A stretch of 64,000 nt of DNA from a candidate division WOR-3 bacterium (GCA_965649215.1 CBFGJZ010000006.1:17193-81192); one strand, 5' to 3'; counted from the first letter of the stretch, positions 46,063-63,508 are shown. Made by a program: numbers and translations. Notes: a model not told the origin generated them from the letters alone.

Positions 46063-46275
46063 TTAATTTGTCTCTTTAGATTTTGATTTATTTATCATAC
46101 TTACTAAAACTCCAATTACAAATCCTATAGCTGTAGTGATTATTAGTAATAATATTAAGGGCATTTGTATTGAGATAAAAAGAATATGCGCTTGGACAGG
46201 TGCTCGATTCTGAATGATTACAATGACAAGAATAATGACTAATATAATTATACTAATCAACTTCTTAATGTTCAT
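46063..46275 (-). CDS. LapA-family small membrane protein
   Basis: TM-IIQN..PV..ILF..MPL-TM pattern; SD GGAG. Confidence 0.8.
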   Translation of the reverse strand: MNIKKLISIIILVIILVIVIIQNRAPVQAHILFISIQMPLILLLIITTAIGFVIGVLVSMINKSKSKETN

Positions 46276-46390: not shown

Positions 46391-46418
46391 TTGACAAAAG
46401 TATTTTTTTTGTTAAAGT
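46391..46418 (+). promoter_or_regulatory. sigma70 promoter of the hydrogenase operon
   Basis: TTGACA-N16-TAAAGT; ATG 12 nt later. Confidence 0.55.
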
Positions 46419-46430: not shown

Positions 46431-47471
46431 ATGGCTATTTTATATTTAAGTCGATATAACTTAAATAAGTGGTTAGAAAAAATTGCCGTTAAATATTTAG
46501 TATACATACCCACATATCAAGAAAATAAACTACATTATAAAAAAATAACAACTATTAATGAATTGCCGGAAGAACAATTATTCAACAAGGCATTACAACA
46601 AATTCGGGTAACTGAATCATTAAAAGGCTTTTTCTTTAGTCCTAAAGTCTTAGTCGCTGGTTTAAACAAAACGGTTCAAATAGATATTAATATTGATAAA
46701 AGTCCACGTATTATTTTTGGTGCTAAAAATTGTGATTTACATCCACTACAGGTTCATCAGAAAATGTATCTAGAAAATGAATATTGTGACAATTTATATA
46801 AATCAGAATTAGAACGAACATTAATCATTGCTGCTGACTGTCCTTATCCCCAAGAAACTTGCTTTTGTAATTTAGTTGGATTAAATCCGTATCCTGAAAA
46901 AGGAGCAGATATTATCATTAGTGTTCTTGAAACAGGTTATCTTTTTGAAACTATAACTGTCAAAGGTAATGAACTTATTCATAGTACCAATCACTTCTTT
47001 CAAGAAGCATCCCTGGAAGACATTAAACAACGAGATTTATTGCGAGAACAAGCAATAAAAAAGTTGCATAGTACAAATGATTTAGTACTCAAAAAAGAAA
47101 TACCTCTTTTAATTGAACAAAAACATGATGAAAAATTTTGGCAACATCATGCTGATAAGTGTGTTGAATGTTTTGGTTGTTTAATGGTGTGTCCAACCTG
47201 TTTTTGTTTTCTTTTATATGATACGCCTATTAACGATGAAGGATTTAAAAGATATAAAATTTGGGATGCCTGTTATTTTAGTGCTTATGCTCGAGTTGGT
47301 GGAGGCATGAATACACGCCCTGAATTTTGGAAACGTTTTCGCAATCGATTCCATTGTAAATTTATGAATTTTAAAAATGACTATAATTTTTTTGCTTGTT
47401 CCGGATGTAATCGATGTTATTTAGTATGTATGGGTAAAATTGATATCAGAAACATACTTAAATCACTATGA
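46431..47471 (+). CDS. AsrA/HydB(beta)-like multi-[4Fe-4S] subunit
   Basis: FGAKNCD, CFC, CVECFGCLMVCPTCFC, WDAC, CSGCNRCYLVC. Confidence 0.88.
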   Translation: MAILYLSRYNLNKWLEKIAVKYLVYIPTYQENKLHYKKITTINELPEEQLFNKALQQIRVTESLKGFFFSPKVLVAGLNKTVQIDINIDKSPRIIFGAKNCDLHPLQVHQKMYLENEYCDNLYKSELERTLIIAADCPYPQETCFCNLVGLNPYPEKGADIIISVLETGYLFETITVKGNELIHSTNHFFQEASLEDIKQRDLLREQAIKKLHSTNDLVLKKEIPLLIEQKHDEKFWQHHADKCVECFGCLMVCPTCFCFLLYDTPINDEGFKRYKIWDACYFSAYARVGGGMNTRPEFWKRFRNRFHCKFMNFKNDYNFFACSGCNRCYLVCMGKIDIRNILKSL

Positions 47472-48286
47472 TGAATCCATTTCAACCATTTGCAGTAAAA
47501 ATAACTAAAATTATTGATGAAACCCCAACAATAAAAACATTTGTTTTAGATCTATTAGGGAATAAATTTTCATTTGATGCGGGTCAATTTATTGAATTAA
47601 CTGTTCCTGGTGTTGGTGAAGCTCCTTTTACTCCTTCATCTTCACCATATATTAAAGATACCTTAGAAATGACAATTATGAAAGTCGGACGTGTTACTTC
47701 TGCACTTTTTGAAAAGAAAGTCGGTGATATTTTAGCAATTCGAGGTCCTTTTGGAAAACGATATCCTATTGAAAAGTTCGAAAAGAAAGAAGTTTTAATT
47801 CTTGGTGGTGGTGTTGGATTAGCGCCGTTACGCTCTCTATTTTTAGCATTAGCAGAAAATATTAAAAAATATGGAAAAATTTATATAAAATACGGGGCTA
47901 GAACTCCTCAAGATATTGTATATAAATATCAAATTCCAGAATGGCAAACATGGAAAGGTGTAGATGTTGATTTATCCGTTGATGTTGGCAACAATGCATG
48001 GAAGGGTAAAATTGGAGTTGTAACTATACTACTAGAAAACTCTTTACCAAATCCACAAGAGATGGTCGCAGTTGTCTGTGGCCCCCCAATTATGATGAAA
48101 TTTGGAACTATTAAACTTCTTGAAAAAGGATTTAAGGGAAGTAATATTTATCTTTCTATGGAAAAGAATATGTCATGCGGAATCGGTCAGTGCGGACATT
48201 GTCGCTGTGGTAGATATTTCGTTTGTAAAGATGGTCCAGTTTTAACTTGGGACCAAATTAAAGACATTGAAGATCCTTTCCTATGA
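47468..48286 (+). CDS. AsrB/HydG(gamma)-like FAD/NAD(P)-binding [2Fe-2S] subunit
   Basis: GQF..PGVGEAPF, GGGVGLAPLRS, CGPPIMM, MSCGIGQCGHC..VCKDGP. Confidence 0.9.
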   Translation: MMNPFQPFAVKITKIIDETPTIKTFVLDLLGNKFSFDAGQFIELTVPGVGEAPFTPSSSPYIKDTLEMTIMKVGRVTSALFEKKVGDILAIRGPFGKRYPIEKFEKKEVLILGGGVGLAPLRSLFLALAENIKKYGKIYIKYGARTPQDIVYKYQIPEWQTWKGVDVDLSVDVGNNAWKGKIGVVTILLENSLPNPQEMVAVVCGPPIMMKFGTIKLLEKGFKGSNIYLSMEKNMSCGIGQCGHCRCGRYFVCKDGPVLTWDQIKDIEDPFL

Positions 48287-49971
48287 ACCCAAAATATAAA
48301 ATTTTGACAACTATTTGCCCGTTCTGTAAATATGGGTGTGAACTAAGTATTCAAGAAATGAATCAAGGAAATTATAAATTGCATCAAATAGAATATTTAA
48401 AAAGTTCAGGAATAAATCAAGGACGACTTTGCCCTCGTGGCAATTCTGCTAAAATACTGTTGAGTCATCCCAAACGATTAACTTATCCTCTATTTAATAA
48501 TAAAATTTTAAAATGGAGCGATATCATTCAAGATATACAAAAATTGATCCAAAACAGTTCTCCAGAGAACATAGCAATTACATATGATTGCAATAATACA
48601 CTTGAAGAATTTTCTGATATCTACAATTTTGCGCATGCCCTCAAAACTGAAAACATAAGCTGCGTTTATTTTCATCCCGAACAATTTTTTAATTATGCGG
48701 TTAGCGAAATCAAACAAATTGATATAAAAGACTTAAATAATAGCAAATTTTTACTAGTAATTGGTGATATTTTTGCTAAATCACCAGTCATTTCTAAACA
48801 TATTTTAGATATTAAATATAGCGATCGAAATAACAAAATATTTTATTTTGATGTGATTAAATCAAAATTAGCAGGTTTTGCAGATAAATTTATTTGGCTA
48901 AATCCAAATACAGAACCGTTGGTTTTATTAGCCCTAATTTTAGAATCAAGTCGAGCAGCAAAGAATATTATAAGCAATAAGTACTACAATGAATTAACAA
49001 AGTTATTACCAACAATCTATGAATTTCTTAATGTCAAACAAAAAGATATTCAAGATATTTGTCAAACTTTATTGAACAATCCCCATAGTCTAGTGCTTGT
49101 TGCCACAGACTTCGGTAAGACTAAAGACCCTTTATTGCTATCTCTCTTAAGTCAATTGTTTGCATCAATAACTCCATCTAAAAAATATTGTAGTTTAGCT
49201 TTAGCATCGATTCCTTTATCGAACATTAAATTTAGCACTATCTTAAATAAGATTAGAGATAATAAGATTAAAATACTAATTCATTTTGGTGAAGAATTTC
49301 CATATTATTATCCACAATTACATCAATTTTTAATTAATTTAGATGTATTTATTTACACTTCAATGCTACGCAGTAACAGAGATCTATTAGCTAAACGAAA
49401 TTACATTTTACCTGTTACTTCAACAATAGAAAAACAAGGGACTATAAATACTTTATGGTCAAAAACAACTATAAAACCAGTTATAGCTCCGATTGATGGC
49501 GCAAAATCCGTATCAGAAATAATTACTTTGCTTCATCCACATTTAAACCGAAATGCAAAAGTCAATTTAAATTATAAATCTCCTATTGATATAGAACGAT
49601 TAATAAATCGTTGTATCGAATATTGTAAGAATTTCTCTATAAATACTAATTCTGATGACTTTCATTTAATTGGTGAAGAATCAGCATATAATTATCGTGG
49701 GTATTTTAACGATTGCTCAAAGGAAGTTAAAATTAATCCTATCACAGCTAAAAAAATTAATATTAAAAATAACGACAGAATCCTTCTTATTTCTAACAAT
49801 TGTCAAAAAGTATTTATTACAAAAATTGTTAACTACTTGCCTTTAGATACAGTCTCAGTATCAACCGATTTACCCGATAATCGTTTACTATTTCCGATAC
49901 AATTTGATAATTTAACAAATGAAATTATGATAAGCTCTAGTTTAGTAAAAATACAAAAAGAAAAAGTGTAA
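48283..49971 (+). CDS. Divergent molybdopterin-oxidoreductase-fold (NuoG/FdhF-like) Fe-S protein
   Basis: TTICPFCKYGC...GRLCPRG, RLTYP, ILP..EKQGT, C-terminal INPITA; cofactor-binding region degenerate. Confidence 0.75.
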   Translation: MNPKYKILTTICPFCKYGCELSIQEMNQGNYKLHQIEYLKSSGINQGRLCPRGNSAKILLSHPKRLTYPLFNNKILKWSDIIQDIQKLIQNSSPENIAITYDCNNTLEEFSDIYNFAHALKTENISCVYFHPEQFFNYAVSEIKQIDIKDLNNSKFLLVIGDIFAKSPVISKHILDIKYSDRNNKIFYFDVIKSKLAGFADKFIWLNPNTEPLVLLALILESSRAAKNIISNKYYNELTKLLPTIYEFLNVKQKDIQDICQTLLNNPHSLVLVATDFGKTKDPLLLSLLSQLFASITPSKKYCSLALASIPLSNIKFSTILNKIRDNKIKILIHFGEEFPYYYPQLHQFLINLDVFIYTSMLRSNRDLLAKRNYILPVTSTIEKQGTINTLWSKTTIKPVIAPIDGAKSVSEIITLLHPHLNRNAKVNLNYKSPIDIERLINRCIEYCKNFSINTNSDDFHLIGEESAYNYRGYFNDCSKEVKINPITAKKINIKNNDRILLISNNCQKVFITKIVNYLPLDTVSVSTDLPDNRLLFPIQFDNLTNEIMISSSLVKIQKEKV

Positions 49972-49979
49972 GTGAACGT

Positions 49980-50450
49980 ATGGCAAAACAAAATAAAAGA
50001 ATTTTTCTTGATTTAGACTATTGCATTGGTTGCCGTTCTTGTGAAACTGCCTGTCGTAGTGCATTCGGGGAATCGCGTATTTGTTATGGAGAAATTTCAG
50101 AAACTGTAACATTACCAATTGCCTGTCGCCATTGTGAAGAACCATTATGCGCTCGAGCTTGTCCATTTGAAGTTTTAAAAGTTTCAGAAGAAGGATTAGT
50201 TCTACAAGCAAGTTTCCATTGTGTTGGTTGTAAATCATGTATTTTAGCGTGTCCCTTTGGTGTCTTAGATAAAAATCTTTTTTATAGAGTATCCCAAAAA
50301 TGCAATCTCTGTTATGATCGAGAAGATGGTCCAAGATGTGTCGCTAGCTGTGCTTCCGGAGCGTTAAAATATTTGACCGAAGCCGAAATAAATAAAATAT
50401 TAATTAGTAAACGTTTTATCTCTCGTTCTCCCTTTTGGAGAAGAACATGA
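49980..50450 (+). CDS. 4x[4Fe-4S] ferredoxin-like subunit (HycB/DmsB type)
   Basis: CIGCRSCETAC, CRHCEEPLCARACP, CVGCKSCILACP, KCNLC..CVASC. Confidence 0.9.
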   Translation: MAKQNKRIFLDLDYCIGCRSCETACRSAFGESRICYGEISETVTLPIACRHCEEPLCARACPFEVLKVSEEGLVLQASFHCVGCKSCILACPFGVLDKNLFYRVSQKCNLCYDREDGPRCVASCASGALKYLTEAEINKILISKRFISRSPFWRRT

Positions 50451-51364
50451 AATTAATTTATTTATTCTATTTTCTCGTTTTCCCGGGATTTCTTTTCACT
50501 TCAATTGTTGGTCTTTTGTTAACTTGGATTGATAGAAAAGTAACTGCGCGTATTCATTGGCGTGTCGGTCCACCATGGTATCAACCTTTTGCAGATTTTT
50601 TAAAATTATTAAGTAAAGAAACATTAATTCCTAGTGGAGCTCATAAAGTTATCTTTTTACTAGCACCAATTTTAAGTATTTTAGCAATGACAGTAATTGC
50701 AGTAATGCTTTTTTTGATGAACTTTTTCCCAGAAAAATCATTCATCGGTGATTTAATTGTTCTTCTTTATTTATTTGCATTGCCTCCGTTAGGACTTATT
50801 ATCGGTGGCTCTGCTTCAAAAAACCCATTAAGTGCGGTTGGTGCTTCACGAGAGATGACTTTATATTTTGGATACGAATTACCATTTCTCGCAGCAATTT
50901 TAATAACAGTCATCAAAACAAATGGATTGATACAAATTGGAGAAATTATTAATTTTCAACATGTCAATGGTCCTATTTTTTATTCGATTTCTGGTATAAT
51001 AGCAATGATTATTTCTTTATTTGTAATTCAAGCAAAATTAGGTTATGTACCATTTGATATAGCTGAAGCTGAACAAGAAATTATGGCTGGTCCGATCTTA
51101 GAATATTCTGGCTTAGCTTTAGCACTTTTTCGCCTAAGTAAAGCTATGATGTTTTTCTTATTACCCTGTTTTTTAGTAACTATATATTGGGGCGGCTTAA
51201 CTCATTGGACAGCTATTTTAAAAGTTTTACTTTTAGTAGTAATAATTATTCTCATTAAAAATACTAATCCTCGTTTAAGAATTGACCAAGCTTTAAAATT
51301 TTTCTGGTTAATACTTTTACCCTTTGCAATAATAGGTATTATTTTAGCGTTTAATAATTTATAA
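50447..51364 (+). CDS. NuoH/MbhM-like membrane subunit
   Basis: DRKVTAR..RVGPP, QPFADFLKL, PFDIAEAEQE, PRLRIDQ. Confidence 0.92.
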   Translation: MKLIYLFYFLVFPGFLFTSIVGLLLTWIDRKVTARIHWRVGPPWYQPFADFLKLLSKETLIPSGAHKVIFLLAPILSILAMTVIAVMLFLMNFFPEKSFIGDLIVLLYLFALPPLGLIIGGSASKNPLSAVGASREMTLYFGYELPFLAAILITVIKTNGLIQIGEIINFQHVNGPIFYSISGIIAMIISLFVIQAKLGYVPFDIAEAEQEIMAGPILEYSGLALALFRLSKAMMFFLLPCFLVTIYWGGLTHWTAILKVLLLVVIIILIKNTNPRLRIDQALKFFWLILLPFAIIGIILAFNNL

Positions 51365-51393
51365 AAATGATAAAACTTTTTTATATCTAAACC

Positions 51394-51810
51394 ATGAAGG
51401 ATATAAGAATTCAAGGATTAAAGAAATCACCTTGGGTATTTCATGTAGCAGCTGCTTCCTGCAACAATTGTGACATCGAAATATTAGATTTACTTACTCC
51501 ACGCTTCGATGTAGAAAGATTTGGAATTGTATTAGTAGGTTCTCCCAAACACGCTGATGCTTTATTAGTTACTGGAGTAATTAACCGTAAGTCACTTCCT
51601 CGAGTATTACGTGTTTATGAACAGACGCCGAAACCATGTTTAGTAATTGGTATTGGAACTTGCACTTGTGATACACATATCTTCAAACATTCATATAATG
51701 TTGTGGGACCTTATAATAAATATCTTCCTGTTGATGTATATATTCCAGGTTGTCCTCCCAAACCTGAAGCAATGATATTAGGTATTGTTAAAGCTTTACA
51801 AAAATTATGA
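51394..51810 (+). CDS. [NiFe] hydrogenase small subunit (MbhJ/NuoB-like)
   Basis: SCNNCDIE, SPKHAD, GTC, PGCPPKP. Confidence 0.93.
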   Translation: MKDIRIQGLKKSPWVFHVAAASCNNCDIEILDLLTPRFDVERFGIVLVGSPKHADALLVTGVINRKSLPRVLRVYEQTPKPCLVIGIGTCTCDTHIFKHSYNVVGPYNKYLPVDVYIPGCPPKPEAMILGIVKALQKL

Positions 51811-52247
51811 ATGATATAATAAATCAAATTCAGCAAGAGCTAATTATAAAATTTCCCGAAGCAAATATTTATAAACATAATGACCGACGATATTACATCT
51901 CAATTCCAAAACGAAAAATTAAAGAAATGGCTTTATTTCTATATCAAGATAAAGGATTTCGGTTATCAATTGCAACTGGTATCGATACGCGGGACGGATT
52001 TGAAATTATCTATCACTTCTCGATGGATAAATTTGGTACTTATTTTAATATAAAGGTATTGATTTCTAAAGAAGATCCGATTATTGAATCTATCACGCCT
52101 ATTTTAGCCGCTGCAAATTGGATAGAACGAGAAATACATGAATTATTAGGTATTGATTTTCAAGGTCATCCAAATTTAAAACCATTATTAACAGCAGAAG
52201 ATTGGCCTGAAGAAAAATTTCCTTTAAGGCGGGATTATGAACAATAA
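51807..52247 (+). CDS. MbhK/NuoC-like subunit
   Basis: ATGID, YHF, WIEREIHELLGIDFQGHP. Confidence 0.92.
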   Translation: MNDIINQIQQELIIKFPEANIYKHNDRRYYISIPKRKIKEMALFLYQDKGFRLSIATGIDTRDGFEIIYHFSMDKFGTYFNIKVLISKEDPIIESITPILAAANWIEREIHELLGIDFQGHPNLKPLLTAEDWPEEKFPLRRDYEQ

Positions 52248-53421
52248 TCGTAGAATTGTACCAATAGGTCCATACCACCCCCTACAAGAAGAACCCGAAT
52301 TCTTTAAACTTTTCGTTGAAGGTGAAAAAGTTGTTGATATCGAGATTAATATCGGATACAATCATCGAGGACATGAATATATTTCTCCAAAATTAACTTT
52401 CGAACAAATTCCTTTCTTAGTCGAACGTATATGTGGAATCTGTTCGAATTCTCATCCCTTAGCTTTTGTTCTTGCGGTTGAAGATGCTGCTCATATTAAA
52501 GTACCAGAGCGAGCTCAATATTTACGTTCAATTGTACATGAATTAGAACGCATCCATTCTCATTTGCTTTGGCTTGGATTAGCAGGACATTTTATTGGCT
52601 ACAATACAGTTTGGATGTGGGCGTGGCGTTATCGTGAGCCTATTTTAGATTTATTTGAAATGATTACGGGTAATCGAAACCATTATGCCATGAATAAAAT
52701 TGGAGGTGTACGCCATAATATAGAAGCTAGTCAAATACCACAAATAGAATCGTGTCTAAATCTTGCTGAACAAAAAATTGCTATGTTTACAAAAGCCATT
52801 TTAGATGACCCCGTAATTCGTGCCCGCTTAGAGAATGTAGGCATTTTACCTAAAGAAATTGCAATTTCTTATGGTGTGTTAGGACCAACTGCTCGTGCTT
52901 CCGGCGTTGCTATTGATGTTCGGAAAGACGATCCTCATTGCGCTTATGATAAAGTAAATTGGAATATGATTGTCTTTACAGAAGGTGATATTCTTGCTAA
53001 AGCTAAAGTAAGATTATTAGAATGTTTCGAATCAATAAAGATAATTCGACAATGTCTAAAACAGTTACCAGATGGACCTATTGAAAATCGGATAGAAGAA
53101 ATTCCTGCTGGAGAAGGTTGTGGCCGTGCGGAAGCACCCCGCGGCGAAGTTTTTCATTATGTACGGACTGATGGTAGTAACCATCCTGTACGTCATAAAG
53201 TACGAGCACCAAGTTTTATGAATTTACCATCAAATGAATATGCTGTTAAGGGATATTCAATTGCTGATGCTGCATTATGTTTAGCTGCGATTGATCCTTG
53301 TTATTGTTGTACTGAAAGGATCGCTGTTTTCTCTGAAGGTAAACAAATTTATACTGGGAAAGAATTATTAAAATTGTCGTGGCAAAAAACAGAATATCTT
53401 AAATCAAAATATCGAAAGTAG
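52237..53421 (+). CDS. Group 4 [NiFe] hydrogenase large subunit (MbhL-like)
   Basis: L1 ERICGIC and L2 DPCYCC both present; EAPRGE; C-terminal extension after L2. Confidence 0.93.
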   Translation: MNNNRRIVPIGPYHPLQEEPEFFKLFVEGEKVVDIEINIGYNHRGHEYISPKLTFEQIPFLVERICGICSNSHPLAFVLAVEDAAHIKVPERAQYLRSIVHELERIHSHLLWLGLAGHFIGYNTVWMWAWRYREPILDLFEMITGNRNHYAMNKIGGVRHNIEASQIPQIESCLNLAEQKIAMFTKAILDDPVIRARLENVGILPKEIAISYGVLGPTARASGVAIDVRKDDPHCAYDKVNWNMIVFTEGDILAKAKVRLLECFESIKIIRQCLKQLPDGPIENRIEEIPAGEGCGRAEAPRGEVFHYVRTDGSNHPVRHKVRAPSFMNLPSNEYAVKGYSIADAALCLAAIDPCYCCTERIAVFSEGKQIYTGKELLKLSWQKTEYLKSKYRK

Positions 53422-53423
53422 TA

Positions 53424-55010
53424 ATGATATCTTTAACACTTATAATTAGCATTCCTATTATTACCGCCATTTTAGGTTATCTGATTCCCAAACTACGAAA
53501 TGAATTTCATTATTTAGGAATTTTTATAACTTTATATTATGCATTTTTGCTCTTTTTTAACTTAAGAAAAATAAATACAATCTCTAAAAATCTCTTTAAT
53601 ATTAAAAACATTACTTTTGCTTTTAATCTTGATAATTTAGGAAGTTTATTTGTATTAGCCGTTGCAATTGTTATTTTTTTAGTTTTAGTTTTTTCATTTC
53701 GTTTTATTCGAAATTGGAAGAATGCTAACAATTATTATTTATATTTATCTTTAGCAATTGGCATTACAAATGCTATGATAATGGCAAATAATTTATTTTT
53801 TTATAGTATTCTTTCAATGTTATTAAGCTTTCTTTTAATACTTTTCATATTCATTGACTCCAATTTGAATCGTAATCATACTATTTCGATTATTTCACAA
53901 ATTGCACTCTATGATATTATTTTTATAATTGGTGTCTTTCTGTTATATTATAATAAAGTAGATATCGCATTATTTTCTTTATCTCCGTCTGAATTATCAT
54001 CTTTCATGCCAAAATTTGGTATTATGTTAATTGTTGTAAGTATTTTTAGTAAATTAGGTTTTATACCATTTCATAGCTATATAAATAAAATTTCGTTGCA
54101 GAACAGTTTACCCGTTTATATGATTATACCCGCGATCCTCCAAAAGATTACTAACATTTATTTACTAATTAGAATTTTATATTATACAATTAATTTTAAT
54201 CAGAATAATTGGTTACTAATCATTATGATTATAATTGGTATTATCAATATAATTATCGCAAGTTTTACTGCCTTTACCTCAAAAACAATTTATCATCTTC
54301 TTAATCAAAATGCTATTGTTCAAATCAGCTTAATTGTAATTTCGATAAGTCTCCTAAATCCATTTGGGTTAGTAGGAGGCATTTATCATGTCATAAGTTA
54401 CTTGACCTTTCAACCTTCTTTACTTTTTACTGCTGGTTCCTTTGAGTATTGGACAAAAAATACTTATTGGGGAAATTACGAAACCTTAAGTTTTAATATG
54501 CCGATTACTTTTATTCTCTTCATTTTAGCTATTTTAGCAACTGTTGGTATTCCACCATTTAGTAGTTTTTTCTCTAAATGGATGATTTTTGAAGGTATTT
54601 TAAGTTTTTCCACATACAAATTGTTAAAAATCTTAGGTATAATTACATTTTTCATTGGATTAATTGTTAACCCGATCTATTTATTACGGTTTTATGATTT
54701 ACTTAAAAGGCCTAAAACTCAATATTCCCATCGAATTCGAGATCCTGGTTTCACAATGTGGATTCCTTCTGCAATGGCGTTATCAATCTCATTGTTTTTA
54801 GGTATTTTTATTAATAAGATTAGTCTGCAATATCTTCTACAACCTATAATATCAAATGTGTTACAACGTTCAATTTTTTTTTCAATTAACATTTATCACT
54901 CATTAAAATTCGAATTTTCCTGGATAACTTTACTTCTTATAATATCGTTCAGTATTGGTATAATAATATATTACATAAAACCGATTAATAAAAAATTACG
55001 AGGTGTTTGA
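53424..55010 (+). CDS. MrpA/MrpD (NuoL/MbhH)-like antiporter subunit, divergent
   Basis: Polytopic membrane protein; KLGFIPFHS, GIPPFSSFFSKW. Confidence 0.85.
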   Translation: MISLTLIISIPIITAILGYLIPKLRNEFHYLGIFITLYYAFLLFFNLRKINTISKNLFNIKNITFAFNLDNLGSLFVLAVAIVIFLVLVFSFRFIRNWKNANNYYLYLSLAIGITNAMIMANNLFFYSILSMLLSFLLILFIFIDSNLNRNHTISIISQIALYDIIFIIGVFLLYYNKVDIALFSLSPSELSSFMPKFGIMLIVVSIFSKLGFIPFHSYINKISLQNSLPVYMIIPAILQKITNIYLLIRILYYTINFNQNNWLLIIMIIIGIINIIIASFTAFTSKTIYHLLNQNAIVQISLIVISISLLNPFGLVGGIYHVISYLTFQPSLLFTAGSFEYWTKNTYWGNYETLSFNMPITFILFILAILATVGIPPFSSFFSKWMIFEGILSFSTYKLLKILGIITFFIGLIVNPIYLLRFYDLLKRPKTQYSHRIRDPGFTMWIPSAMALSISLFLGIFINKISLQYLLQPIISNVLQRSIFFSINIYHSLKFEFSWITLLLIISFSIGIIIYYIKPINKKLRGV

Positions 55011-55540
55011 TGACAGCTATCTATCTATTAGTAATAGCAATGCTTGCAGCTGCTTTAGTCGCTATTGAAATAAAAGATTTATTAGCTGCAGCAGTTGCTG
55101 TAGGAATTGTTGGTTTTTCAGTTGCAATTATGTTTATTTTAGTTCAAGCGCCTGATTTAGCGATAGTTCAAATCGTAGTTGAAATTTTAACTGTTGTTTT
55201 CTTTGCGGCAACTATATTACGAACCACGCATACAGATAGCACAATTCAAAAAGGTATTCAACCAGAAAGTATCTTTCCTGTAATTGTCTTTTTTATATTT
55301 GGCACTTTAATAACTGTTCTTTCGATCTATGCACTAAAAGATTTACCACATTTCGGCGAACCAATAATGAATGTCGCAAGTTACTATATTAATAATGCAT
55401 TAAACCAAATTGGTGCTGCAAATATTGTTGCTGCCATTATTTTAGACTATCGAGGTTACGACACTTTTGGGGAAGCAGTTGTTTTATTTACTTCTGTTTT
55501 AGGTGTTTTAACTATTTTAAGAATTAAGGGGCGAAAATGA
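55010..55540 (+). CDS. DUF4040 + MbhE-like subunit (MbhD/E fusion)
   Basis: APDLAIVQIVVE; NIVAAIILDYRGYDTFGE. Confidence 0.88.
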   Translation: MTAIYLLVIAMLAAALVAIEIKDLLAAAVAVGIVGFSVAIMFILVQAPDLAIVQIVVEILTVVFFAATILRTTHTDSTIQKGIQPESIFPVIVFFIFGTLITVLSIYALKDLPHFGEPIMNVASYYINNALNQIGAANIVAAIILDYRGYDTFGEAVVLFTSVLGVLTILRIKGRK

Positions 55541-55971
55541 AAGGAATGACTATAATTGTTAAAACAATCGCGCGAATAATTGCAGGGTTTATCTTTCTGT
55601 ACGGTTGTTATATAATTATTCATGGACATCTTTCGCCAGGCGGTGGTTTTGCAGGAGGTGTGATAATTGCTGCTTCATTTATATTACTAATTCTATCTTT
55701 TGGAGCTGCTGAAATTAAAGAAAGAACTTCCTATACTTTTTCCTCGATTTTTGAAAGTTTAGGTGGTATTATGTTTTTAACCTTGGCTTTATTGGGACTC
55801 TTGATGGGAACATTTTTTTTCACTAATGTTCTTGATAAAGGAATTCCTTTTAAAATTCTTAGTGCGGGCATAATTCCTTTAGCAAATATTGCGATCGGTA
55901 TGAAAGTTGGTGCTGGACTTTTAAGTATTTTTATTGCATTAGCGGCTTCACATTTTATTATGAAGGAGTAA
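55537..55971 (+). CDS. MrpB/MbhF-like subunit
   Basis: GHLSPGGGFAGG. Confidence 0.92.
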   Translation: MKGMTIIVKTIARIIAGFIFLYGCYIIIHGHLSPGGGFAGGVIIAASFILLILSFGAAEIKERTSYTFSSIFESLGGIMFLTLALLGLLMGTFFFTNVLDKGIPFKILSAGIIPLANIAIGMKVGAGLLSIFIALAASHFIMKE

Positions 55972-55973
55972 AA

Positions 55974-56312
55974 ATGTTACCTTTTATTGGTTGTATCTTA
56001 CTAATCATTATTGGGCTTTATGCCATAATTACCAAAAGAAATTTAATCAAAATTGCAATCGGGTTTTGTATGGTGGAATATGGAGTTAATCTTTTATTCG
56101 CTTTCATTGGTTTTAAAAAAGATGCTTTAGCTCCTATAATTACCTCTACTACCCAACAAATGAATTTTGTTGATCCGATCCCACAGGCATTAGTTCTAAC
56201 CGCGATTGTTATTGGTTTAGGTACCACTGCAGTTATGTTATCGTTAATAATACGTATTTATCAAAAATATCAAACATTTGATATTAATGAAATTAAAAAA
56301 TTAAGAGGATAA
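55974..56312 (+). CDS. MrpC/MbhG-like subunit
   Basis: NLIK, DPIPQALVLTAIVI. Confidence 0.93.
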   Translation: MLPFIGCILLIIIGLYAIITKRNLIKIAIGFCMVEYGVNLLFAFIGFKKDALAPIITSTTQQMNFVDPIPQALVLTAIVIGLGTTAVMLSLIIRIYQKYQTFDINEIKKLRG

Positions 56313-56316
56313 CAGC

Positions 56317-56805
56317 ATGTCACAAAGGATAAGTTATGGTGTTTTATGTTTTGTATTATGGTTGACTCTTACGTGGACTCTTAATTATTTTTCAATTATA
56401 GTTGGTTTAATTGTATCCTTAATTGTGGCAATAGTCTTTGGTGGGTATTTTTCTTATCATCCTATTAAAATTTTACAACCTCATCGTTTGTTGTGGTTAT
56501 TAGTATATATACCTATTTTTGGTTGGGAATGTTTAAAAGCTAACTTTGATGTTGCTTATCGAGTTATTCATCCTGAGCGACCTTTAAAACCTGGGATTGT
56601 AAAAATTAAAACAAAACTCAAAACTGATTTAGCAAAAACTATGTTAGCAAATTCAATTACTATGACACCGGGGACAATGAGTGTTGACATTGAAGGAGAT
56701 ATTTTATATATTCATTGGATCTGGATTAGAGATACGGATATAGAAAAAGCATCAAAAGATATTGCAGGAAATTTTGAAAAATATTTATTGAAAATATTTG
56801 AATAG
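56317..56805 (+). CDS. MrpE/MbhA-like subunit
   Basis: ANFDVAY, PGIV, LANSITMTPGT, LYIH. Confidence 0.93.
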   Translation: MSQRISYGVLCFVLWLTLTWTLNYFSIIVGLIVSLIVAIVFGGYFSYHPIKILQPHRLLWLLVYIPIFGWECLKANFDVAYRVIHPERPLKPGIVKIKTKLKTDLAKTMLANSITMTPGTMSVDIEGDILYIHWIWIRDTDIEKASKDIAGNFEKYLLKIFE

Positions 56806-56814
56806 CGGGGAAAT

Positions 56815-57069
56815 ATGGAAATACTTATTATTTTATTATCTTTAGGTGCTTTCTTTTGTCTATATCGAGCATTGCAAGGACCAAGTATTTCAGATCGAGT
56901 AATATCAGTTGATATTATGAGTATAATTTTTACTTGTATAACAGCATTGATGGCATTGCGTTATAATATTGCCTTTCTAATGGACTTAGCAATAACCTTA
57001 GCAATATTAAGTTTCATAGGAACATTAGCGTTAGCAAAATATTTAGAAGGTAGGAGTTTGGATGATTAA
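56815..57069 (+). CDS. MrpF/MbhB-like subunit
   Basis: GPSISDRVISVD, SFIGTLALAKYL. Confidence 0.92.
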   Translation: MEILIILLSLGAFFCLYRALQGPSISDRVISVDIMSIIFTCITALMALRYNIAFLMDLAITLAILSFIGTLALAKYLEGRSLDD

Positions 57070-57439
57070 CGTCTTAGGTTGGATATTTATTATAATTGGA
57101 GTATGTTTTGCTCTTTTAGGATGTCTTGGTTTAGTTAGATTTCCTGACTTATATAATCGCATGCAAGCAGCGACAAAAGGTGTTACCTTGGGTGCTTGTG
57201 GTTTAATGTTTGGTGTTTTTCTATTAAAAGGGTTTTCAGTTATGGGTGTAAAAGCATTAGTGTGTGCAACATTTATTTTGTTAACTATGCCTGTTGCTGC
57301 GCATGTTTTAGCTCGAAGCTCTCTTCTCTTCGGAATCAAAATGTGGCACAAAACCCAGCTCGATAAATTTGGACCCGATAAAGTGAATCAAGTATTAATT
57401 GAACCATATCAGGAGAAAGAAAATAATGAGAAAGCCTAA
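57062..57439 (+). CDS. MrpG/MbhC-like subunit
   Basis: RFPDLYNRMQAATK, TMPVAAH. Confidence 0.92.
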   Translation: MINVLGWIFIIIGVCFALLGCLGLVRFPDLYNRMQAATKGVTLGACGLMFGVFLLKGFSVMGVKALVCATFILLTMPVAAHVLARSSLLFGIKMWHKTQLDKFGPDKVNQVLIEPYQEKENNEKA

Positions 57440-58043
57440 ATTACGCGAACTAGGTGAAGCAATTCGTGCCTTAATTAAAGGACCTTATACTGCCAAATTC
57501 CCCAAAGCGCCTCCCATTACAGCAAAAGAATTTCGCGGCATTATCAAATATAACGAAGAGCGTTGTATTGGATGTGGTGCATGCGCAGAAGTTTGTCCTG
57601 CGAATGCTCGAGCAATCGAGGACGATTGGGAGCGAAAAGTTCGTAAAGTAATCCATTATCAAGAAAAATGTATTTATTGCGGACAATGCGTCAATTATTG
57701 TACAACTCAGGAAGGCATTAAACACACTCAGGAATACGACTTAGCAAAACTTGAAAACAAAGGTTTTGAAAATATTATTGAAAAAGAACTGGAATTTTGC
57801 GAAATGTGCGGAGAAGTGGTTGCACCCAAAGCCCAACTCATCTGGATTGCTCACAAGTTAGGCGAACTCGCTTATGCCAACCCGACTTTGTATCTTAGCA
57901 TTCATCAAAATTTAGATACAATTCAAAAAGAAGAAAAAGTTAAACTGCAAAATAAAGAACTACCCTATCGTTCACAACATCAGCGTATTCTCTGCGTAGA
58001 TTGCCGACGCAAAGCATATCTCAATGAAGTTTGGGGATATTAA
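57426..58043 (+). CDS. MbhN/NuoI-like 2x[4Fe-4S] subunit with extra CxxC pairs
   Basis: YTAKFP, FRG, CIGCGACAEVCP, CIYCGQCVNYC, CEMC..CVDC; SD AGGAG before ATG 57426. Confidence 0.9.
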   Translation: MRKPKLRELGEAIRALIKGPYTAKFPKAPPITAKEFRGIIKYNEERCIGCGACAEVCPANARAIEDDWERKVRKVIHYQEKCIYCGQCVNYCTTQEGIKHTQEYDLAKLENKGFENIIEKELEFCEMCGEVVAPKAQLIWIAHKLGELAYANPTLYLSIHQNLDTIQKEEKVKLQNKELPYRSQHQRILCVDCRRKAYLNEVWGY

Positions 58044-58682
58044 ACTATATATAAAAAATTAAAAACCATTAAAAAGCAAAAATTAAAAATTTCAGAAAAT
58101 ATCATTAAAAGTTATGATACCCAGAAAACCAATCGGATTCCGCCCAATCAACGATTAACCAAAGATTTTCCAATTTTACATTACAATGGCATACCGCAAT
58201 TTAACCGAGCAAAGTGGTCATTTCGTATCTGGGGTTTGGTTGAAAAAGAAAAGCGTTTGAATTATCAGGAATTTACAAGCTTGCCGCAGGTTAAAGTTTA
58301 TGCCGATATTCACTGCGTTACCGGCTGGTCAAAACTTGATAATATCTGGCAAGGAATTAGTTCACAAGTAATTAAGGATTTGATTTCAATAAAGCCCGAT
58401 GCAAAGTATATCCTGATTAATTGCGATGATGGTTATTATACAAATCTATCTTTTGACGATTTTTTTCAAGACGATGTGCTTTTTGCGTTTAAACATAATA
58501 ATCAAGACATCACACCCGAACATGGTTATCCAGTTCGGCTGGTTGTTCCCAGACTCTATTTTTGGAAAAGCGCGAAATGGGTCAACGGCGTTCAATTCTT
58601 GGCAAAAGATGTACCCGGTTTCTGGGAATCGCGTGGTTATCATAATCATGGCGACCCCTGGCTGGAAGAGCGCTATTCGTAA
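58044..58682 (+). CDS. Sulfite-oxidase-like Mo-MPT oxidoreductase (YuiH/MsrP-like, cytoplasmic); start codon unclear
   Basis: In-frame RIPPNQ..FPILH upstream of the TTG at 58236; DIHCVTGWS, HGYPVRLVVP, WKSAKW, GFWESRGYH. Confidence 0.8.
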   Translation, partial: TIYKKLKTIKKQKLKISENIIKSYDTQKTNRIPPNQRLTKDFPILHYNGIPQFNRAKWSFRIWGLVEKEKRLNYQEFTSLPQVKVYADIHCVTGWSKLDNIWQGISSQVIKDLISIKPDAKYILINCDDGYYTNLSFDDFFQDDVLFAFKHNNQDITPEHGYPVRLVVPRLYFWKSAKWVNGVQFLAKDVPGFWESRGYHNHGDPWLEERYS

Positions 58683-58754: not shown

Positions 58755-59153
58755 ATGGATATCGATATGAAACTCTTAATTGAACAACTGCTGGATATGT
58801 TAAAAGCATTGTCTGACCAGACTCGCTTGCGCATATTCTGGGTGTTGCAAAAAGCCGCTACAGAACTCTGCGTTTGCGAGCTGATAGATATCCTTGACCA
58901 GACTCAATACAATGTTTCCCGTCATCTGAAAATACTCAAATACGCTGGTTTAGTTAAAGAGCGTAAACAAGGTACCTTTGTTTACTACTCGGTTTCAAAA
59001 TTAGGAGATAAAGTATATAAGTATCTTTTAGAAATGGTCTCGGCAATTTCCGAAGACATTTTACCAGCAGATGCTAAAAGACTTAAAAAACGGCTTAGTT
59101 TGCGTAAAAACGGCATCTGCGTGATTGGCATGCGCGGTAAAAAAATAAAATAA
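58755..59153 (+). CDS. arsR: ArsR/SmtB-family repressor
   Basis: KALSDQTRLRI, ELCVCEL, VSRHLKILK. Start is 58755 or 58767. Confidence 0.92.
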   Translation: MDIDMKLLIEQLLDMLKALSDQTRLRIFWVLQKAATELCVCELIDILDQTQYNVSRHLKILKYAGLVKERKQGTFVYYSVSKLGDKVYKYLLEMVSAISEDILPADAKRLKKRLSLRKNGICVIGMRGKKIK

Positions 59154-59170
59154 AAAATATGGAGGTAAAT

Positions 59171-59416
59171 ATGGAAATCAAAATCCTTGGCACTGGCTGT
59201 CCCAGATGCCATGAACTAGAAAAACGAACCTTAGATACATTGGCAGAGCTGAAAATAGTCGCTGATGTTCAAAAAATAACTGATATTAAAAAAATTATGG
59301 AATATAAAATTCTGGGTACACCTGGTTTGGTTATTAACGGCAAAGTCAAATCTGCGGGTCGAATTCCGTCTAAAGAAGATATCAAAAAGTGGATACAAGA
59401 AGAAATGAATCAATGA
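59171..59416 (+). CDS. Small redox-active disulfide protein (thioredoxin-like)
   Basis: GTGCPRC, TPGLVING; SD GGAGG. Confidence 0.92.
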   Translation: MEIKILGTGCPRCHELEKRTLDTLAELKIVADVQKITDIKKIMEYKILGTPGLVINGKVKSAGRIPSKEDIKKWIQEEMNQ

Positions 59417-62807: not shown

Positions 62808-63508
62808 TGTTAACTGCAATCTTTACCTGGTTAACCAATACGATTCAAGGTGTGCCGGTCATTGCAATTCTCGGCTCTTTTCTCTGGGGTGTTTTAAGTA
62901 TTCTTTTAAGCCCGTGCCATTTAGCAAGCATTCCTTTGATTGTCGGATTTATCTCAGGACAGGAAACCACATCAACCAAACGCGCATTCTGGCTCGCAAC
63001 CTTATTTTCGCTGGGTATTCTTGTCACAATCGCGATAATTGGAATAATAACCGGCTTAATGGGCAGGATGCTTGGCGATGTTGGCAAATATGGCAATTAT
63101 ATCGTTGCCGTGATATTCTTTATTGTCGGTCTCTATCTTTTAGAAATCATAAAATTACCATTCTTAAGTAACGCCGCTCAACCAGGACTTAAAAAACGGG
63201 GTTTGCTCGCATCGTTCGTTTTAGGACTTGTTTTTGGCATTGCTTTAGGACCTTGCACATTTGCTTATATGGCGCCAATGCTTGCCTTGACATTTAGCAT
63301 CGCATCAACCCGTCTCTTTTATGGAATCTTTTTACTCTTAATTTATGGTCTTGGTCATTGCTCAATCATTGTTGCCGCAGGCACTTTTACGGAAATCATC
63401 GAGCATTACCTGCACTGGAGCGAAAAATCCAATGGCATAAAAATTGTCAAAAAAGTCTGCGGCGTTTTAGTAATCTTAGGCGGTATTTATCTGTTATGGA
63501 TAGCATAG
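62807..63508 (+). CDS. ccdA: CcdA/DsbD transmembrane electron transporter
   Basis: LSPCHLASIP, GPCTFAY, YGLGH. Confidence 0.88.
   Translation: MLTAIFTWLTNTIQGVPVIAILGSFLWGVLSILLSPCHLASIPLIVGFISGQETTSTKRAFWLATLFSLGILVTIAIIGIITGLMGRMLGDVGKYGNYIVAVIFFIVGLYLLEIIKLPFLSNAAQPGLKKRGLLASFVLGLVFGIALGPCTFAYMAPMLALTFSIASTRLFYGIFLLLIYGLGHCSIIVAAGTFTEIIEHYLHWSEKSNGIKIVKKVCGVLVILGGIYLLWIA

What the first reader, a model, noticed from the sequence alone, without database searches (positions are those of the whole stretch)
46431..58043. Hybrid 16-gene complex: sulfhydrogenase/Asr-type NAD(P)H module wired to an Mrp-linked group 4 [NiFe] hydrogenase
Seen: one promoter, then overlapping or abutting genes for HydB/AsrA-like, HydG/AsrB-like, Mo-oxidoreductase-fold and HycB-like proteins, followed by NuoH/B/C/D-like subunits, a set of Mrp-like subunits and a NuoI-like protein. 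The large subunit has both Ni-binding CxxC motifs, so it is not Mbx/Ehr-type. Known: Pyrococcus Mbh is ferredoxin-dependent and lacks a flavin module, while HydBG belong to soluble group 3b enzymes. Inference: a membrane complex linking NAD(P)H directly to H+/H2, either by ion-gradient-driven reverse electron flow or in a flavin-based confurcating mode. I know of no biochemical characterisation of this arrangement.
Basis: partly seen in the sequence, partly recalled or inferred. Interest (0 to 1): 0.78.

Follow-up and report, generated by a model that had tools for sequence, protein, structure and literature searches.

The report
Hun-type membrane hydrogenase operon, WOR-3
This is a real 16-gene operon for a membrane-bound, ion-pumping nickel-iron hydrogenase with a built-in NAD(P)H-type flavoprotein entry module; the design was already named "Hun" from genomes but has never been tested biochemically.

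Summary
Sixteen abutting or overlapping + strand genes (46431-58043) encode an AsrA/HydB-like and an AsrB/HydG-like protein, a Mo-enzyme-fold protein, a HycB-like ferredoxin, NuoH/B/C, a [NiFe] large subunit with both CxxC motifs, Mrp-type membrane subunits and a NuoI-like protein.

The front genes are co-conserved with the hydrogenase. No break in gene order was seen in 20 of 20 genome loci or in 19 of 19 metagenome loci of a much more distant clade.

The arrangement is not new. It was described from genomes in 2019 (Saganbacteria; PMC6349859) and named the Hun supercomplex in 2021 (bioRxiv 10.1101/536078), including the variant with a molybdopterin-domain protein. This scan has also met it in at least seven other genomes.

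Findings added here:
- The Mo-fold subunit lacks the catalytic Cys/Sec. It sits in an order where MoeA was found in 0 of 41 and MoaC in 1 of 41 genomes, while the subunit itself is in 38 of 41. It is therefore most likely a cofactor-less, NuoG-like scaffold.
- The genome has a separate group 3b hydrogenase with its own beta/gamma subunits, and no AsrC.

NAD(P)H coupling remains an inference; the authors who named Hun proposed ferredoxin.

The parts
46431..47471 (+). g01, HunA-like: AsrA / sulfhydrogenase-beta-like iron-sulfur protein (346 aa)
   Evidence: Fer4_22 at 1.7e-23. ShyB 3.8e-48, HydB 2e-40 and AsrA 1.5e-31, all below the equivalog cut-offs. The best solved relative is P. furiosus sulfhydrogenase 1 beta, 9nez_B, at 8.7e-38, with all Cys motifs aligned. 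16 Cys are invariant in 16 sequences.
47468..48286 (+). g02, HunB-like: AsrB / sulfhydrogenase-gamma-like FAD + NAD(P)-binding + [2Fe-2S] protein (272 aa)
   Evidence: FAD_binding_6, NAD_binding_1 (1.1e-14) and DHODB_Fe-S_bind. AsrB 9.4e-65 and HydG 7.1e-53. It aligns over residues 3-264 to sulfhydrogenase 1 gamma, 9nez_C, at 9.2e-53, and keeps the GGGVGLAPLRS, CGPP and CGIGQCGHC...C motifs.
48283..49971 (+). g03: short FdhF-like Mo/W-bisPGD-fold protein with one [4Fe-4S] site and no catalytic Cys/Sec; proposed cofactor-less scaffold (562 aa)
   Evidence: Molybdop_Fe4S4 at 4.2e-08; the Molybdopterin domain is below cut-off. The AF2 model has pLDDT 88.6 and pTM 0.90. Foldseek top hits are FDH1 7vw6_A, FdhH 1fdi (TMq 0.78) and FHL 7z0t_A; NuoG 8e9g_G gives TMq 0.66. 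C12, C15, C19 and C50 are invariant, and there is no conserved Cys in the active-site segment. MoeA is in 0 of 41 and MoaC in 1 of 41 genomes of the order.
49980..50450 (+). g04, HunC-like: HycB-type ferredoxin with four [4Fe-4S] motifs (156 aa)
   Evidence: Fer4_11 at 5e-15. 16 invariant Cys in four CxxCxxCxxxC-type groups. Best solved relatives are HDCR HycB3 7qv7_A at 2.9e-23 and FHL HycB 7z0s_B at 5.2e-17.
50435..51364 (+). g05: NuoH / MbhM-like membrane subunit (309 aa)
   Evidence: NADHdh PF00146 at 9.8e-67.
51394..51810 (+). g06: NuoB / hydrogenase small-subunit-like protein (138 aa)
   Evidence: Oxidored_q6 at 4.7e-28. Translation.
51807..52247 (+). g07: NuoC-like protein (146 aa)
   Evidence: Complex1_30kDa at 1.5e-29.
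52237..53421 (+). g08, HunG-like: group 4 [NiFe] hydrogenase large subunit (394 aa)
   Evidence: Complex1_49kDa at 4.5e-69 and NiFeSe_Hases at 2.2e-16. It has RICGICSNSH and DPCYCCTER plus a 33-aa tail. Best solved relatives are MbhL 6cfw_L at 2.9e-85 and HycE 7z0s_E at 1.2e-77.
53424..55010 (+). g09: the single antiporter-like MrpD / NuoL / MbhH-type subunit (528 aa)
   Evidence: Proton_antipo_M at 2.1e-24. The best solved relative is MbhH 6cfw_H at 1.4e-24.
55007..55540 (+). g10: fused MbhD + MbhE (MrpA C-terminal-like) subunit (177 aa)
   Evidence: MbhD at 4.4e-15 and MbhE at 6.4e-10.
55537..55971 (+). g11: MnhB / MrpB-like subunit (144 aa)
   Evidence: MnhB PF04039 at 9.1e-28.
55974..56312 (+). 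g12: MnhC / NuoK-like subunit (112 aa)
   Evidence: Oxidored_q2 at 1.5e-25.
56317..56805 (+). g13: MnhE / MrpE-like subunit (162 aa)
   Evidence: MNHE at 6.9e-44.
56815..57069 (+). g14: MrpF-like subunit (84 aa)
   Evidence: MrpF_PhaF at 6e-15.
57062..57439 (+). g15: MrpG-like subunit (125 aa)
   Evidence: PhaG_MnhG_YufB at 2.8e-23.
57399..58043 (+). g16, HunP-like: NuoI / HycF-like 2x[4Fe-4S] subunit with a Cys-rich C-terminal extension; likely start at ATG 57426
   Evidence: Fer4 at 2e-12. FHL iron-sulfur subunit 1.3e-24 and NuoI 9.5e-18. Translation.
58089..58682 (+). Possible 17th gene: sulfite-oxidase-fold (Oxidored_molyb) protein with no canonical start codon; membership in the operon is uncertain
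   Evidence: PF00174 at 8.6e-38. Homologues lie at the same position after the NuoI-like gene in L001 and L020 and start with ATG, where the window has ATT.

Best explanation
The region is a Hun-type operon. It encodes a complex-I-like, Mrp-linked group 4 [NiFe] hydrogenase whose peripheral arm is extended by a dedicated electron-entry module.

Proposed electron path (inferred from cofactor motifs and homology, not measured):
- NAD(P)H is oxidised at the FAD of g02.
- Electrons pass its [2Fe-2S] cluster and the three or so [4Fe-4S] clusters of g01.
- They continue through the four [4Fe-4S] clusters of the HycB-like g04, possibly also through the single cluster of g03.
- They then cross the two clusters of the NuoI-like g16 and the proximal cluster of the NuoB-like g06.
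- They reach the Ni-Fe site of g08, where protons are reduced to H2, or H2 is oxidised in the reverse direction.

g03 has the fold of formate dehydrogenase H. It has lost the catalytic Cys/Sec and sits in a lineage without molybdenum-cofactor synthesis. It therefore most likely serves as a structural connector, as the C-terminal domain of NuoG does in complex I.

The membrane arm is g05 and g09-g15. It has one antiporter-like subunit plus Mrp B/C/E/F/G-like parts, as in Pyrococcus Mbh. It couples the small redox span between NAD(P)H and H2 to H+/Na+ movement. Ion influx would drive H2 evolution from NAD(P)H, or H2 oxidation would export ions.

Shown: gene content, motifs, fold, co-conservation, and absence of Moco genes, AsrC and a second NuoD. 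Inferred: physical assembly, NAD(P)H as the partner, and the direction of the reaction.
For: - Domain content of all 16 products.
- g02 aligns nearly end to end with the NADPH-binding gamma subunit of P. furiosus sulfhydrogenase 1 and keeps its flavin, nucleotide and [2Fe-2S] motifs.
- g01 keeps every Cys motif of the beta subunit.
- g04 has 16 invariant Cys.
- The large subunit keeps both Ni-Fe motifs in 27 of 27 related loci, and its nearest solved relative is MbhL.
- Order g01-g02-g03-g04-NuoH-B-C-LSU is unbroken in 20 of 20 genome loci: 18 reach g04, 16 reach the large subunit, and 3 show the identical 16 genes.
- The same order holds in 19 of 19 metagenome loci of a clade whose g03 is only about 20-25% identical; 13 of these reach the large subunit.
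- A g03 homologue is in 38 of 41 genomes of the order, and in 35 of 35 high-quality ones.
- The front module has no other client in this 95%-complete genome. There is no AsrC and no second NuoD, and the group 3b operon has its own beta/gamma.
- g03 is not a formate dehydrogenase. It has no conserved Cys/Sec. MoeA is in 0 of 41 genomes with the control ringing in 11 of 14, MoaC is in 1 of 41, and FdhD is absent from the own genome.
- The published description of the same operon type gives CGIC-CYCC motifs in HunG.
Against: - No biochemical, structural or expression data exist for any member (paper searches).
- The authors who named Hun proposed ferredoxin, not NAD(P)H, as the donor. HydDB lists group 4g as putatively ferredoxin-coupled.
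- NAD(P)H to H2 is uphill under standard conditions, so the direction and the need for an ion gradient are assumptions.
- No Rex gene or Rex-like operator links this copy to NADH sensing.
- Whether the g03 cluster lies on the electron path is unknown. In complex I the equivalent cluster N7 is off-path (recalled, not tested here).
- An Oxidored_molyb gene directly downstream fits poorly with a lineage that makes no molybdenum cofactor.
Confidence: 0.55

Rival explanations
1. Ferredoxin-coupled Mbh-like hydrogenase, which is the published reading. HunA/B/C merely extend the iron-sulfur wire that accepts electrons from reduced ferredoxin. The flavin/NAD domain of g02 is then vestigial or regulatory.
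For: Glass et al. propose this for Hun (passages). HydDB annotates group 4g as putatively ferredoxin-coupled. The nearest solved large subunit and antiporter-like subunit are those of ferredoxin-dependent Mbh. The genome has an Rnf/Nqr-type complex, so ferredoxin turnover matters to it.
Against: g02 keeps the full FAD, NAD(P) and [2Fe-2S] motifs of the NADPH-dependent sulfhydrogenase gamma subunit. It is 46-86% identical across all 39 loci, which is not what a vestigial domain would show. Mbh itself needs none of g01-g04 to take electrons from ferredoxin (recalled).
Confidence: 0.25
2. Confurcating or bifurcating enzyme. NAD(P)H and reduced ferredoxin are oxidised together to make H2, or the reverse.
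For: The genome lacks an [FeFe] hydrogenase, so no known confurcating hydrogenase is present. There are many extra iron-sulfur clusters.
Against: No component resembles a known bifurcating flavoprotein. g02 belongs to the PyrK/AsrB/HydG family, whose FAD is not known to bifurcate (recalled). The complex already has an ion-translocating arm that can supply the missing energy.
Confidence: 0.07
3. Formate hydrogenlyase variant. g03 is a divergent formate dehydrogenase feeding HycB and the hydrogenase, and g01/g02 link it to NAD(P).
For: g03 has the FdhH fold. Its profile hits FdhA/FdhF best. The g03-g04 order mirrors FdhF-HycB, and g04's best solved relatives are HycB proteins.
Against: The active-site segment has no conserved Cys/Sec-His. 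MoeA is in 0 of 41 and MoaC in 1 of 41 genomes of the order. MoaA does not reach its cut-off and FdhD is absent from the own genome. g03 is the fastest-evolving soluble subunit, 47% identical in L001 where its neighbours are 62-92%.
Confidence: 0.03
4. g01-g04 form a separate soluble oxidoreductase that is only co-transcribed with, and not bound to, the hydrogenase.
For: Physical association is not shown.
Against: None of g01-g04 has a recognisable catalytic site other than the NAD(P)/FAD site. Order and adjacency are kept across very deep divergence. The HycB-like g04 has a docking role in solved FHL and HDCR complexes.
Confidence: 0.05

Closest known systems
Hun supercomplex (hunA-P), Glass et al. 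2021, bioRxiv 10.1101/536078 (passages read)
   Same: It is a 16-gene operon. The first two products are AsrA- and AsrB-like, and no AsrC is present. The large subunit has the unusual CGIC / CYCC motif pair. P-module-like and Mrp/Mnh-like membrane subunits are present. The paper notes that some genomes have a 4Fe-4S molybdopterin-domain protein between HunB and HunC, as this window does.
   Different: This copy has only one antiporter-like (MrpD-type) gene. The gene found between MnhC and MnhE in the distant clade is missing here and in L001, L002 and L020. My mapping of letters to genes is inferred from the text, because the figure is not held. The paper lists Atribacteria, Firmicutes, Omnitrophica, Elusimicrobia, Bacteroidetes and Kosmotoga, not WOR-3. 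The authors propose ferredoxin as the donor.
'Enigmatic' group 4 [NiFe] hydrogenase region of Saganbacteria RX5A, Matheus Carnevali et al. 2019, PMC6349859 (passages read)
   Same: [quoted passage not shown] The authors suggest these 'might compose an oxidoreductase module'.
   Different: It comes from a different phylum. I did not compare sequences directly. Supplementary Fig. 3e and Note 5 were not seen.
Pyrococcus furiosus membrane-bound hydrogenase Mbh (PDB 6CFW; HydDB group 4d)
   Same: It is the nearest solved relative of the large subunit (2.9e-85) and of the antiporter-like subunit (1.4e-24). MbhD/MbhE and MrpB/C/E/F/G-type subunits are present.
   Different: Mbh has no g01-g04 equivalents and takes electrons from ferredoxin (recalled).
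E. coli formate hydrogenlyase (PDB 7Z0S/7Z0T) and Mrp-linked formate-respiring hydrogenases (HydDB 4a/4b)
   Same: An FdhF-fold protein is followed by a HycB-like ferredoxin and then a NuoH/B/C/D/I-type hydrogenase core.
   Different: g03 lacks the Sec/Cys-His site, and the lineage lacks Moco synthesis genes. An NAD(P)/FAD module has been added.
P. furiosus sulfhydrogenase 1 (group 3b; PDB 9NEZ) beta and gamma subunits
   Same: g01 and g02 are their nearest solved homologues, with all cofactor motifs kept.
   Different: They are joined here to a group 4 membrane enzyme. The genome's true group 3b operon lies elsewhere, on contig C2, with its own beta/gamma subunits.
Respiratory complex I N-module (NuoE/F/G)
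   Same: It works alike in outline. A nucleotide-oxidising flavoprotein is joined through a cofactor-less Mo-enzyme-fold protein to the NuoI/B/D wire. NuoG 8e9g_G matches the g03 model at TMq 0.66.
   Different: The flavoprotein family is unrelated (PyrK/AsrB type, not NuoF/NuoE). The NuoD homologue keeps its Ni-Fe ligands, and nothing indicates a quinone site.

Membership tests
Hun supercomplex (Glass et al. 2021) | The operon begins with AsrA-like and AsrB-like genes and contains no AsrC | tested here: met
   No AsrC reaches the cut-off anywhere in the genome.
Hun supercomplex (Glass et al. 2021) | Large subunit HunG has L1 CGIC and L2 CYCC motifs | tested here: met
   RICGICSNSH and DPCYCCTER. 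CYCC is kept in 15 of 15 close loci; the 12 distant-clade loci have CYSC.
Hun supercomplex (Glass et al. 2021) | NuoH/B/C/I-type core plus Mrp/Mnh-like membrane subunits in the same operon | tested here: met
Hun supercomplex (Glass et al. 2021) | HydDB assigns the large subunit to group 4g | not testable with these tools
   HydDB is not available here. Only the nearest solved relatives are known.
Mbh, group 4d ferredoxin-coupled Mrp-linked hydrogenase | 14-gene mbhA-N set with no flavin or NAD module | tested here: not met
   Four extra genes, g01-g04, include an FAD/NAD(P) protein.
Formate hydrogenlyase / formate-respiring group 4a/4b | Catalytic formate dehydrogenase with a Sec/Cys-His site and Mo/W-bisPGD | tested here: not met
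   There is no conserved Cys/Sec in the aligned segment. MoeA is in 0 of 41 genomes, MoaC in 1 of 41, and FdhD in 0 of 1.
Group 3b sulfhydrogenase | Beta/gamma subunits encoded with a group 3 large subunit and a delta small subunit | tested here: not met
   The adjacent large subunit is NuoD/Mbh-type. A complete beta-gamma-delta-alpha operon lies on contig C2.
Anaerobic sulfite reductase AsrABC | Siroheme subunit AsrC | tested here: not met
   The best TIGR02912 match is 40 bits against a cut-off of 324.1.
Respiratory complex I | NuoD without Ni-Fe ligands, and a NuoE/F NADH module | tested here: not met
   Both CxxC motifs are present. The only PF00346 matches in the genome lie in this gene. 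NuoE/F were not searched as families; none is in the operon.

The most novel reading that the evidence does not exclude
Hun is an ion-gradient-coupled NAD(P)H:H+ oxidoreductase: a second, independently assembled 'N-module' solution for a complex-I-type machine. In it a dead formate dehydrogenase (g03) plays the NuoG role and a PyrK/AsrB-type flavoprotein plays the NuoF role. In fermenters that lack [FeFe] hydrogenases, as this genome does, Rnf (ferredoxin to NAD+, ions out) together with Hun (NAD(P)H to H2, ions in) would achieve by chemiosmosis what confurcating hydrogenases achieve with a bifurcating flavin. All reducing equivalents could then leave as H2. Its presence in 38 of 41 genomes of this WOR-3 order would make it their central redox valve.
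Probability: 0.4. Interest if true: 0.8.

Novelty: new member of a known kind. Interest (0 to 1): 0.4.

Why it matters
Group 4 hydrogenases are seen as the ancestors of respiratory complex I, and no characterised member takes electrons from a pyridine nucleotide. If Hun does, it would be a missing functional link: a membrane enzyme that trades an ion gradient for the NAD(P)H/H2 couple.

This window adds a concrete point. The Mo-enzyme-fold subunit of this variant is almost certainly without cofactor. That parallels how NuoG arose, and it argues against annotating these genes as formate dehydrogenases in metabolic reconstructions. An unplaceable FDH-like sequence in a WOR-3 MAG was noted in PMC9469722 (passages).

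Tried and rejected
- Complex prediction of g03 + g04 + g01(56-346) scored 0.00, which gives no verdict.
- Expression and co-transcription: no RNA holder was listed.
- Promoter and terminator scan: uninformative in this AT-rich DNA.
- Rex control, a lead from earlier scan notes: no Rex-like operator lies upstream. There were 4 matches in the window against 5.17 expected, none near 46431. No Rex DNA-binding domain is in the genome.
- The first attempt to scan metagenomes with a 17-sequence alignment of distant g03 relatives failed for lack of a conserved stretch. A 7-sequence subset worked.
- Formate hydrogenlyase reading: rejected (see rival explanations).
- AsrABC and group 3b partnership: rejected.
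- HydDB classification could not be run.
- The exact residue of g03 equivalent to Sec140 of FdhH differs between three alignments: Y129, position 131 or E133. I therefore claim only that no Cys/Sec is conserved in that segment.
- Paper searches for a biochemical characterisation found none. Subscription-only papers and the supplements of the cited papers were not seen.
Full report
**Observation.** Between 46431 and 58043 the + strand carries 16 ORFs. They overlap by 4-41 nt or are separated by at most 29 nt.

Pfam and NCBIfam give the following assignments:

| Gene | Assignment |
|---|---|
| g01 | AsrA / HydB / ShyB-like (Fer4_22) |
| g02 | AsrB / HydG-like (FAD_binding_6, NAD_binding_1, DHODB [2Fe-2S] domain) |
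| g03 | Molybdop_Fe4S4 plus a sub-threshold Molybdopterin domain |
| g04 | HycB / HydN-like |
| g05-g08 | NuoH, NuoB, NuoC, and a NuoD/[NiFe] large subunit |
| g09 | MrpD / NuoL-like |
| g10 | MbhD + MbhE |
| g11-g15 | MnhB, MnhC, MnhE, MrpF, MrpG |
| g16 | NuoI / HycF-like |

The large subunit reads RICGICSNSH and DPCYCCTER, followed by a 33-residue tail.

The 'one promoter' statement cannot be judged. A TTGACA-16-TAAAGT site lies at 46391-46418, but such sites are barely enriched over shuffles in this AT-rich DNA: 94 against 76.6 +/- 8.3. No RNA run was listed. g16 probably starts at the ATG at 57426.

**Co-conservation.**
- *Rarity of g03.* It is the least common component: 18 hits among the 8000 candidates scored from a 5.8-billion-protein collection, and the named ones come from WOR-3 and Latescibacteria MAGs.
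- *Close relatives.* A scan of one genome per prokaryotic species returned 76 loci. L001-L020 are full-length relatives of g03. I ran synteny only on these 20. L021-L076 match only part of g03, mostly its N-terminal ~220 residues, at 20-34% identity, and I took them for generic Mo enzymes. tblastn with the 16 window proteins found the same order in all 20, as far as each contig reaches. 17 loci show g01 upstream, 18 reach g04, 16 reach the large subunit, and L001, L002 and L020 have the identical 16 genes. The Stahlbacteria-type loci carry one or two extra MrpD-like genes.
- *A distant clade.* I then took a far more distant group of short Mo-fold proteins found by a profile search of 1.84 billion representatives. 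That search gave 123 proteins at E <= 1e-30, many of them 500-620 aa and matched end to end. Scanning metagenome contigs with a 7-sequence alignment of that group returned 19 loci. All 19 show AsrA-AsrB-MoFold-HycB-NuoH-B-C-LSU-MrpD-MbhDE-MnhB-MnhC-(MrpD)-MnhE-F-G-NuoI as far as the contig reaches. 13 reach the large subunit, which is 55-58% identical to the window's.
- *Ni-Fe motifs.* Both are kept in 27 of 27 large subunits of these loci.
- *Distribution in the order.* A g03 homologue occurs in 38 of 41 genomes of the window's own order, and in 35 of 35 genomes of high quality.

**Does the front module serve another enzyme?** The window's genome is 1.64 Mb in 39 contigs and 95.1% complete.
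- It has two further [NiFe] large subunits.
- One lies in a complete beta-gamma-delta-alpha operon of sulfhydrogenase type on contig C2. Its own beta and gamma are only 29% and 36% identical to g01 and g02.
- The other is Vhu/Mvh-like, on contig C15.
- No AsrC reaches the family cut-off: 40 bits against 324.
- No second NuoD-type gene exists.
- No [FeFe] hydrogenase was found.
- An Rnf/Nqr-type subunit D and a HycI-type maturation protease are present.

**The Mo-fold subunit.**
- *Fold.* An AlphaFold2 model built on 17 sequences is confident, with pLDDT 88.6 and pTM 0.90. It matches the whole Mo/W-bisPGD fold. Top hits are FDH1 7vw6_A, FdhH 1fdi (TMq 0.78), FdhF in the FHL complex 7z0t_A, and Nap, all at 12-15% identity. 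NuoG of complex I matches at TMq 0.66.
- *Iron-sulfur site.* The four Cys of the N-terminal [4Fe-4S] site are invariant.
- *Active site.* In the segment that aligns with the Sec/Cys-His of formate dehydrogenases, the family reads S-Y-L-E-P-E (window: Y-F-H-P-E). No Cys is conserved there. Eight true FDH-like rows in the same alignment read C-A-R-x-C-H. The exact residue equivalence differs between alignments, so I claim only the absence of a conserved Cys/Sec.
- *Cofactor synthesis.* The lineage seems unable to make the cofactor. MoeA_N is found in 0 of 41 genomes of the order, while the same search rings in 11 of 14 control genomes. MoaC is found in 1 of 41, as a fragment at a contig end. In the own genome MoaA does not reach its cut-off and FdhD is absent.
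- *Rate of change.* g03 is also among the fastest-evolving subunits. In L001 it is 47% identical, against 62-92% for the other soluble subunits and 98% for MrpF.

The simplest reading is a formate-dehydrogenase relic kept as an iron-sulfur-bearing connector, like the C-terminal domain of NuoG.

**The NAD(P)H module.** g02 aligns over residues 3-264 with the gamma subunit of P. furiosus sulfhydrogenase 1 (9nez_C, 9.2e-53). It keeps the GVGE.P flavin segment, GGGVGLAPLRS, CGPP, and the C-terminal CGIGQCGHC...C [2Fe-2S] motif. g01 aligns with the beta subunit (9nez_B, 8.7e-38) with every Cys motif in register, and 16 Cys are invariant in 16 sequences. g04 has four complete [4Fe-4S] motifs. Its nearest solved relatives are HycB3 of the hydrogen-dependent CO2 reductase and HycB of formate hydrogenlyase.

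These data support a continuous wire from a nucleotide/flavin site to the Ni-Fe site. They do not prove it, and they do not prove that NAD(P)H is the physiological partner.

**What is already known.**
- Matheus Carnevali et al. 2019 (PMC6349859; passages) describe in Saganbacteria an 'enigmatic' group 4 hydrogenase region with Mrp-like subunits, an unclassifiable molybdopterin oxidoreductase, cooF, asrA and asrB.
- Following a lead from earlier notes of this scan, I read passages of Glass et al. 2021 (bioRxiv 10.1101/536078). They name a 16-subunit Hun supercomplex with HunAB similar to AsrAB. HunG is classified by HydDB as group 4g and carries CGIC-CYCC motifs. In some genomes a 4Fe-4S molybdopterin-domain protein lies between HunB and HunC. 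They list Atribacteria, Firmicutes, Omnitrophica, Elusimicrobia, Bacteroidetes and cultured Kosmotoga, and they propose ferredoxin as the donor.
- The window's large subunit has exactly CGIC and CYCC, so this is a Hun operon of the Mo-domain variant. It lacks the second antiporter-like gene seen in the distant clade.
- HydDB calls 4g 'of unknown function', putatively ferredoxin-coupled (passages). Mrp-linked 4g enzymes in Cloacimonadota, Omnitrophota and Auribacterota have been read as ferredoxin-dependent (passages).
- Brazelton et al. 2022 mention an unplaceable FDH-like sequence in a WOR-3 MAG (passages). A WOR-3 survey does not mention this complex in the passages I saw.
- I found no biochemical study (searches). 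The supplements of these papers were not seen.
- The scan itself has reported the same design in at least seven other genomes.

**Mechanism and rivals.**
- I rate NAD(P)(H) coupling of a reversible, ion-translocating hydrogenase at about 0.55. The grounds are the intact and strongly conserved nucleotide/flavin subunit and the lack of any other client for it.
- The published ferredoxin reading stays at about 0.25.
- Confurcation, a formate hydrogenlyase function and an unattached soluble module are each unlikely.
- The direction cannot be told from sequence. With Rnf present and no [FeFe] hydrogenase, gradient-assisted H2 evolution from NAD(P)H is attractive. H2 uptake with ion export is equally allowed by the thermodynamics.

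**Leads that gave nothing.** A Rex-type regulator or operator was reported for other copies by earlier notes, but neither is present here. A three-chain complex prediction gave no verdict.

**Verdict.** This is a real, well-conserved operon and a new WOR-3 member of a kind already named from genomes but never tested. The modest new contribution is the evidence that its Mo-fold subunit is a cofactor-less scaffold, and that the complex is near-universal in this order.

Noticed in passing
window 58089-58682 (+); L001 17130-17699; L020 17605-18174: A sulfite-oxidase-fold (Oxidored_molyb, 8.6e-38) gene follows g16 directly and in the same frame. It has no ATG/GTG/TTG before 58236. Its homologues at the same place in two relatives start with ATG where the window has ATT. 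The order lacks MoeA (0 of 41) and MoaC (1 of 41), yet PF00174 occurs in 8 of 41 genomes. How this protein gets its cofactor, or does without it, is unexplained.
   Followed up: partly
G000 contig C2, L085 9321-13291 (-): A complete sulfhydrogenase-type (group 3b-like) beta-gamma-delta-alpha operon lies in the same genome.
   Followed up: partly
G000 contig C15, L084 8512-13585 (-): Vhu/Mvh-like large and small hydrogenase subunits are preceded by three ORFs of 209, 303 and 219 aa with no NCBIfam match at 1e-10.
   Followed up: no
G000 contig C3, about 77.7-87.7 kb: Three MrpD/NuoL-like genes lie together with no NuoD- or NuoH-type gene detected. This may be a stand-alone Mrp antiporter or another complex.
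   Followed up: no
window 48283-49971 and 53424-55010: g03 and g09 are far less conserved than the rest of the operon. In L001 they are 47% and 45% identical, against 62-98% for the other 14.
   Followed up: partly
window 46063-46275 (-): A small LapA-domain membrane ORF (70 aa, 6.8e-11) lies in the 726-nt AT-rich spacer upstream of the operon, on the opposite strand.
   Followed up: no
window 57399-58043, C-terminal third of g16: The NuoI-like protein has an extension of about 90 residues with two CxxC pairs (CEMCGE ... CVDCRRK) beyond the two ferredoxin motifs.
   Followed up: no
window 58755-60582 (+): An ArsR-type regulator, a small thioredoxin-fold protein and an ArsP-type permease lie downstream. 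Thioredoxin / DsbD-like genes follow at 61815-63508.
   Followed up: no
L006, L010, L012, L015, L017 (between the large subunit and the first MrpD-like hit): Stahlbacteria-type loci have 1.2-1.4 kb after the large subunit that matched none of the 16 query proteins, and extra MrpD-like genes further on. Their membrane arm is larger than in the window.
   Followed up: no
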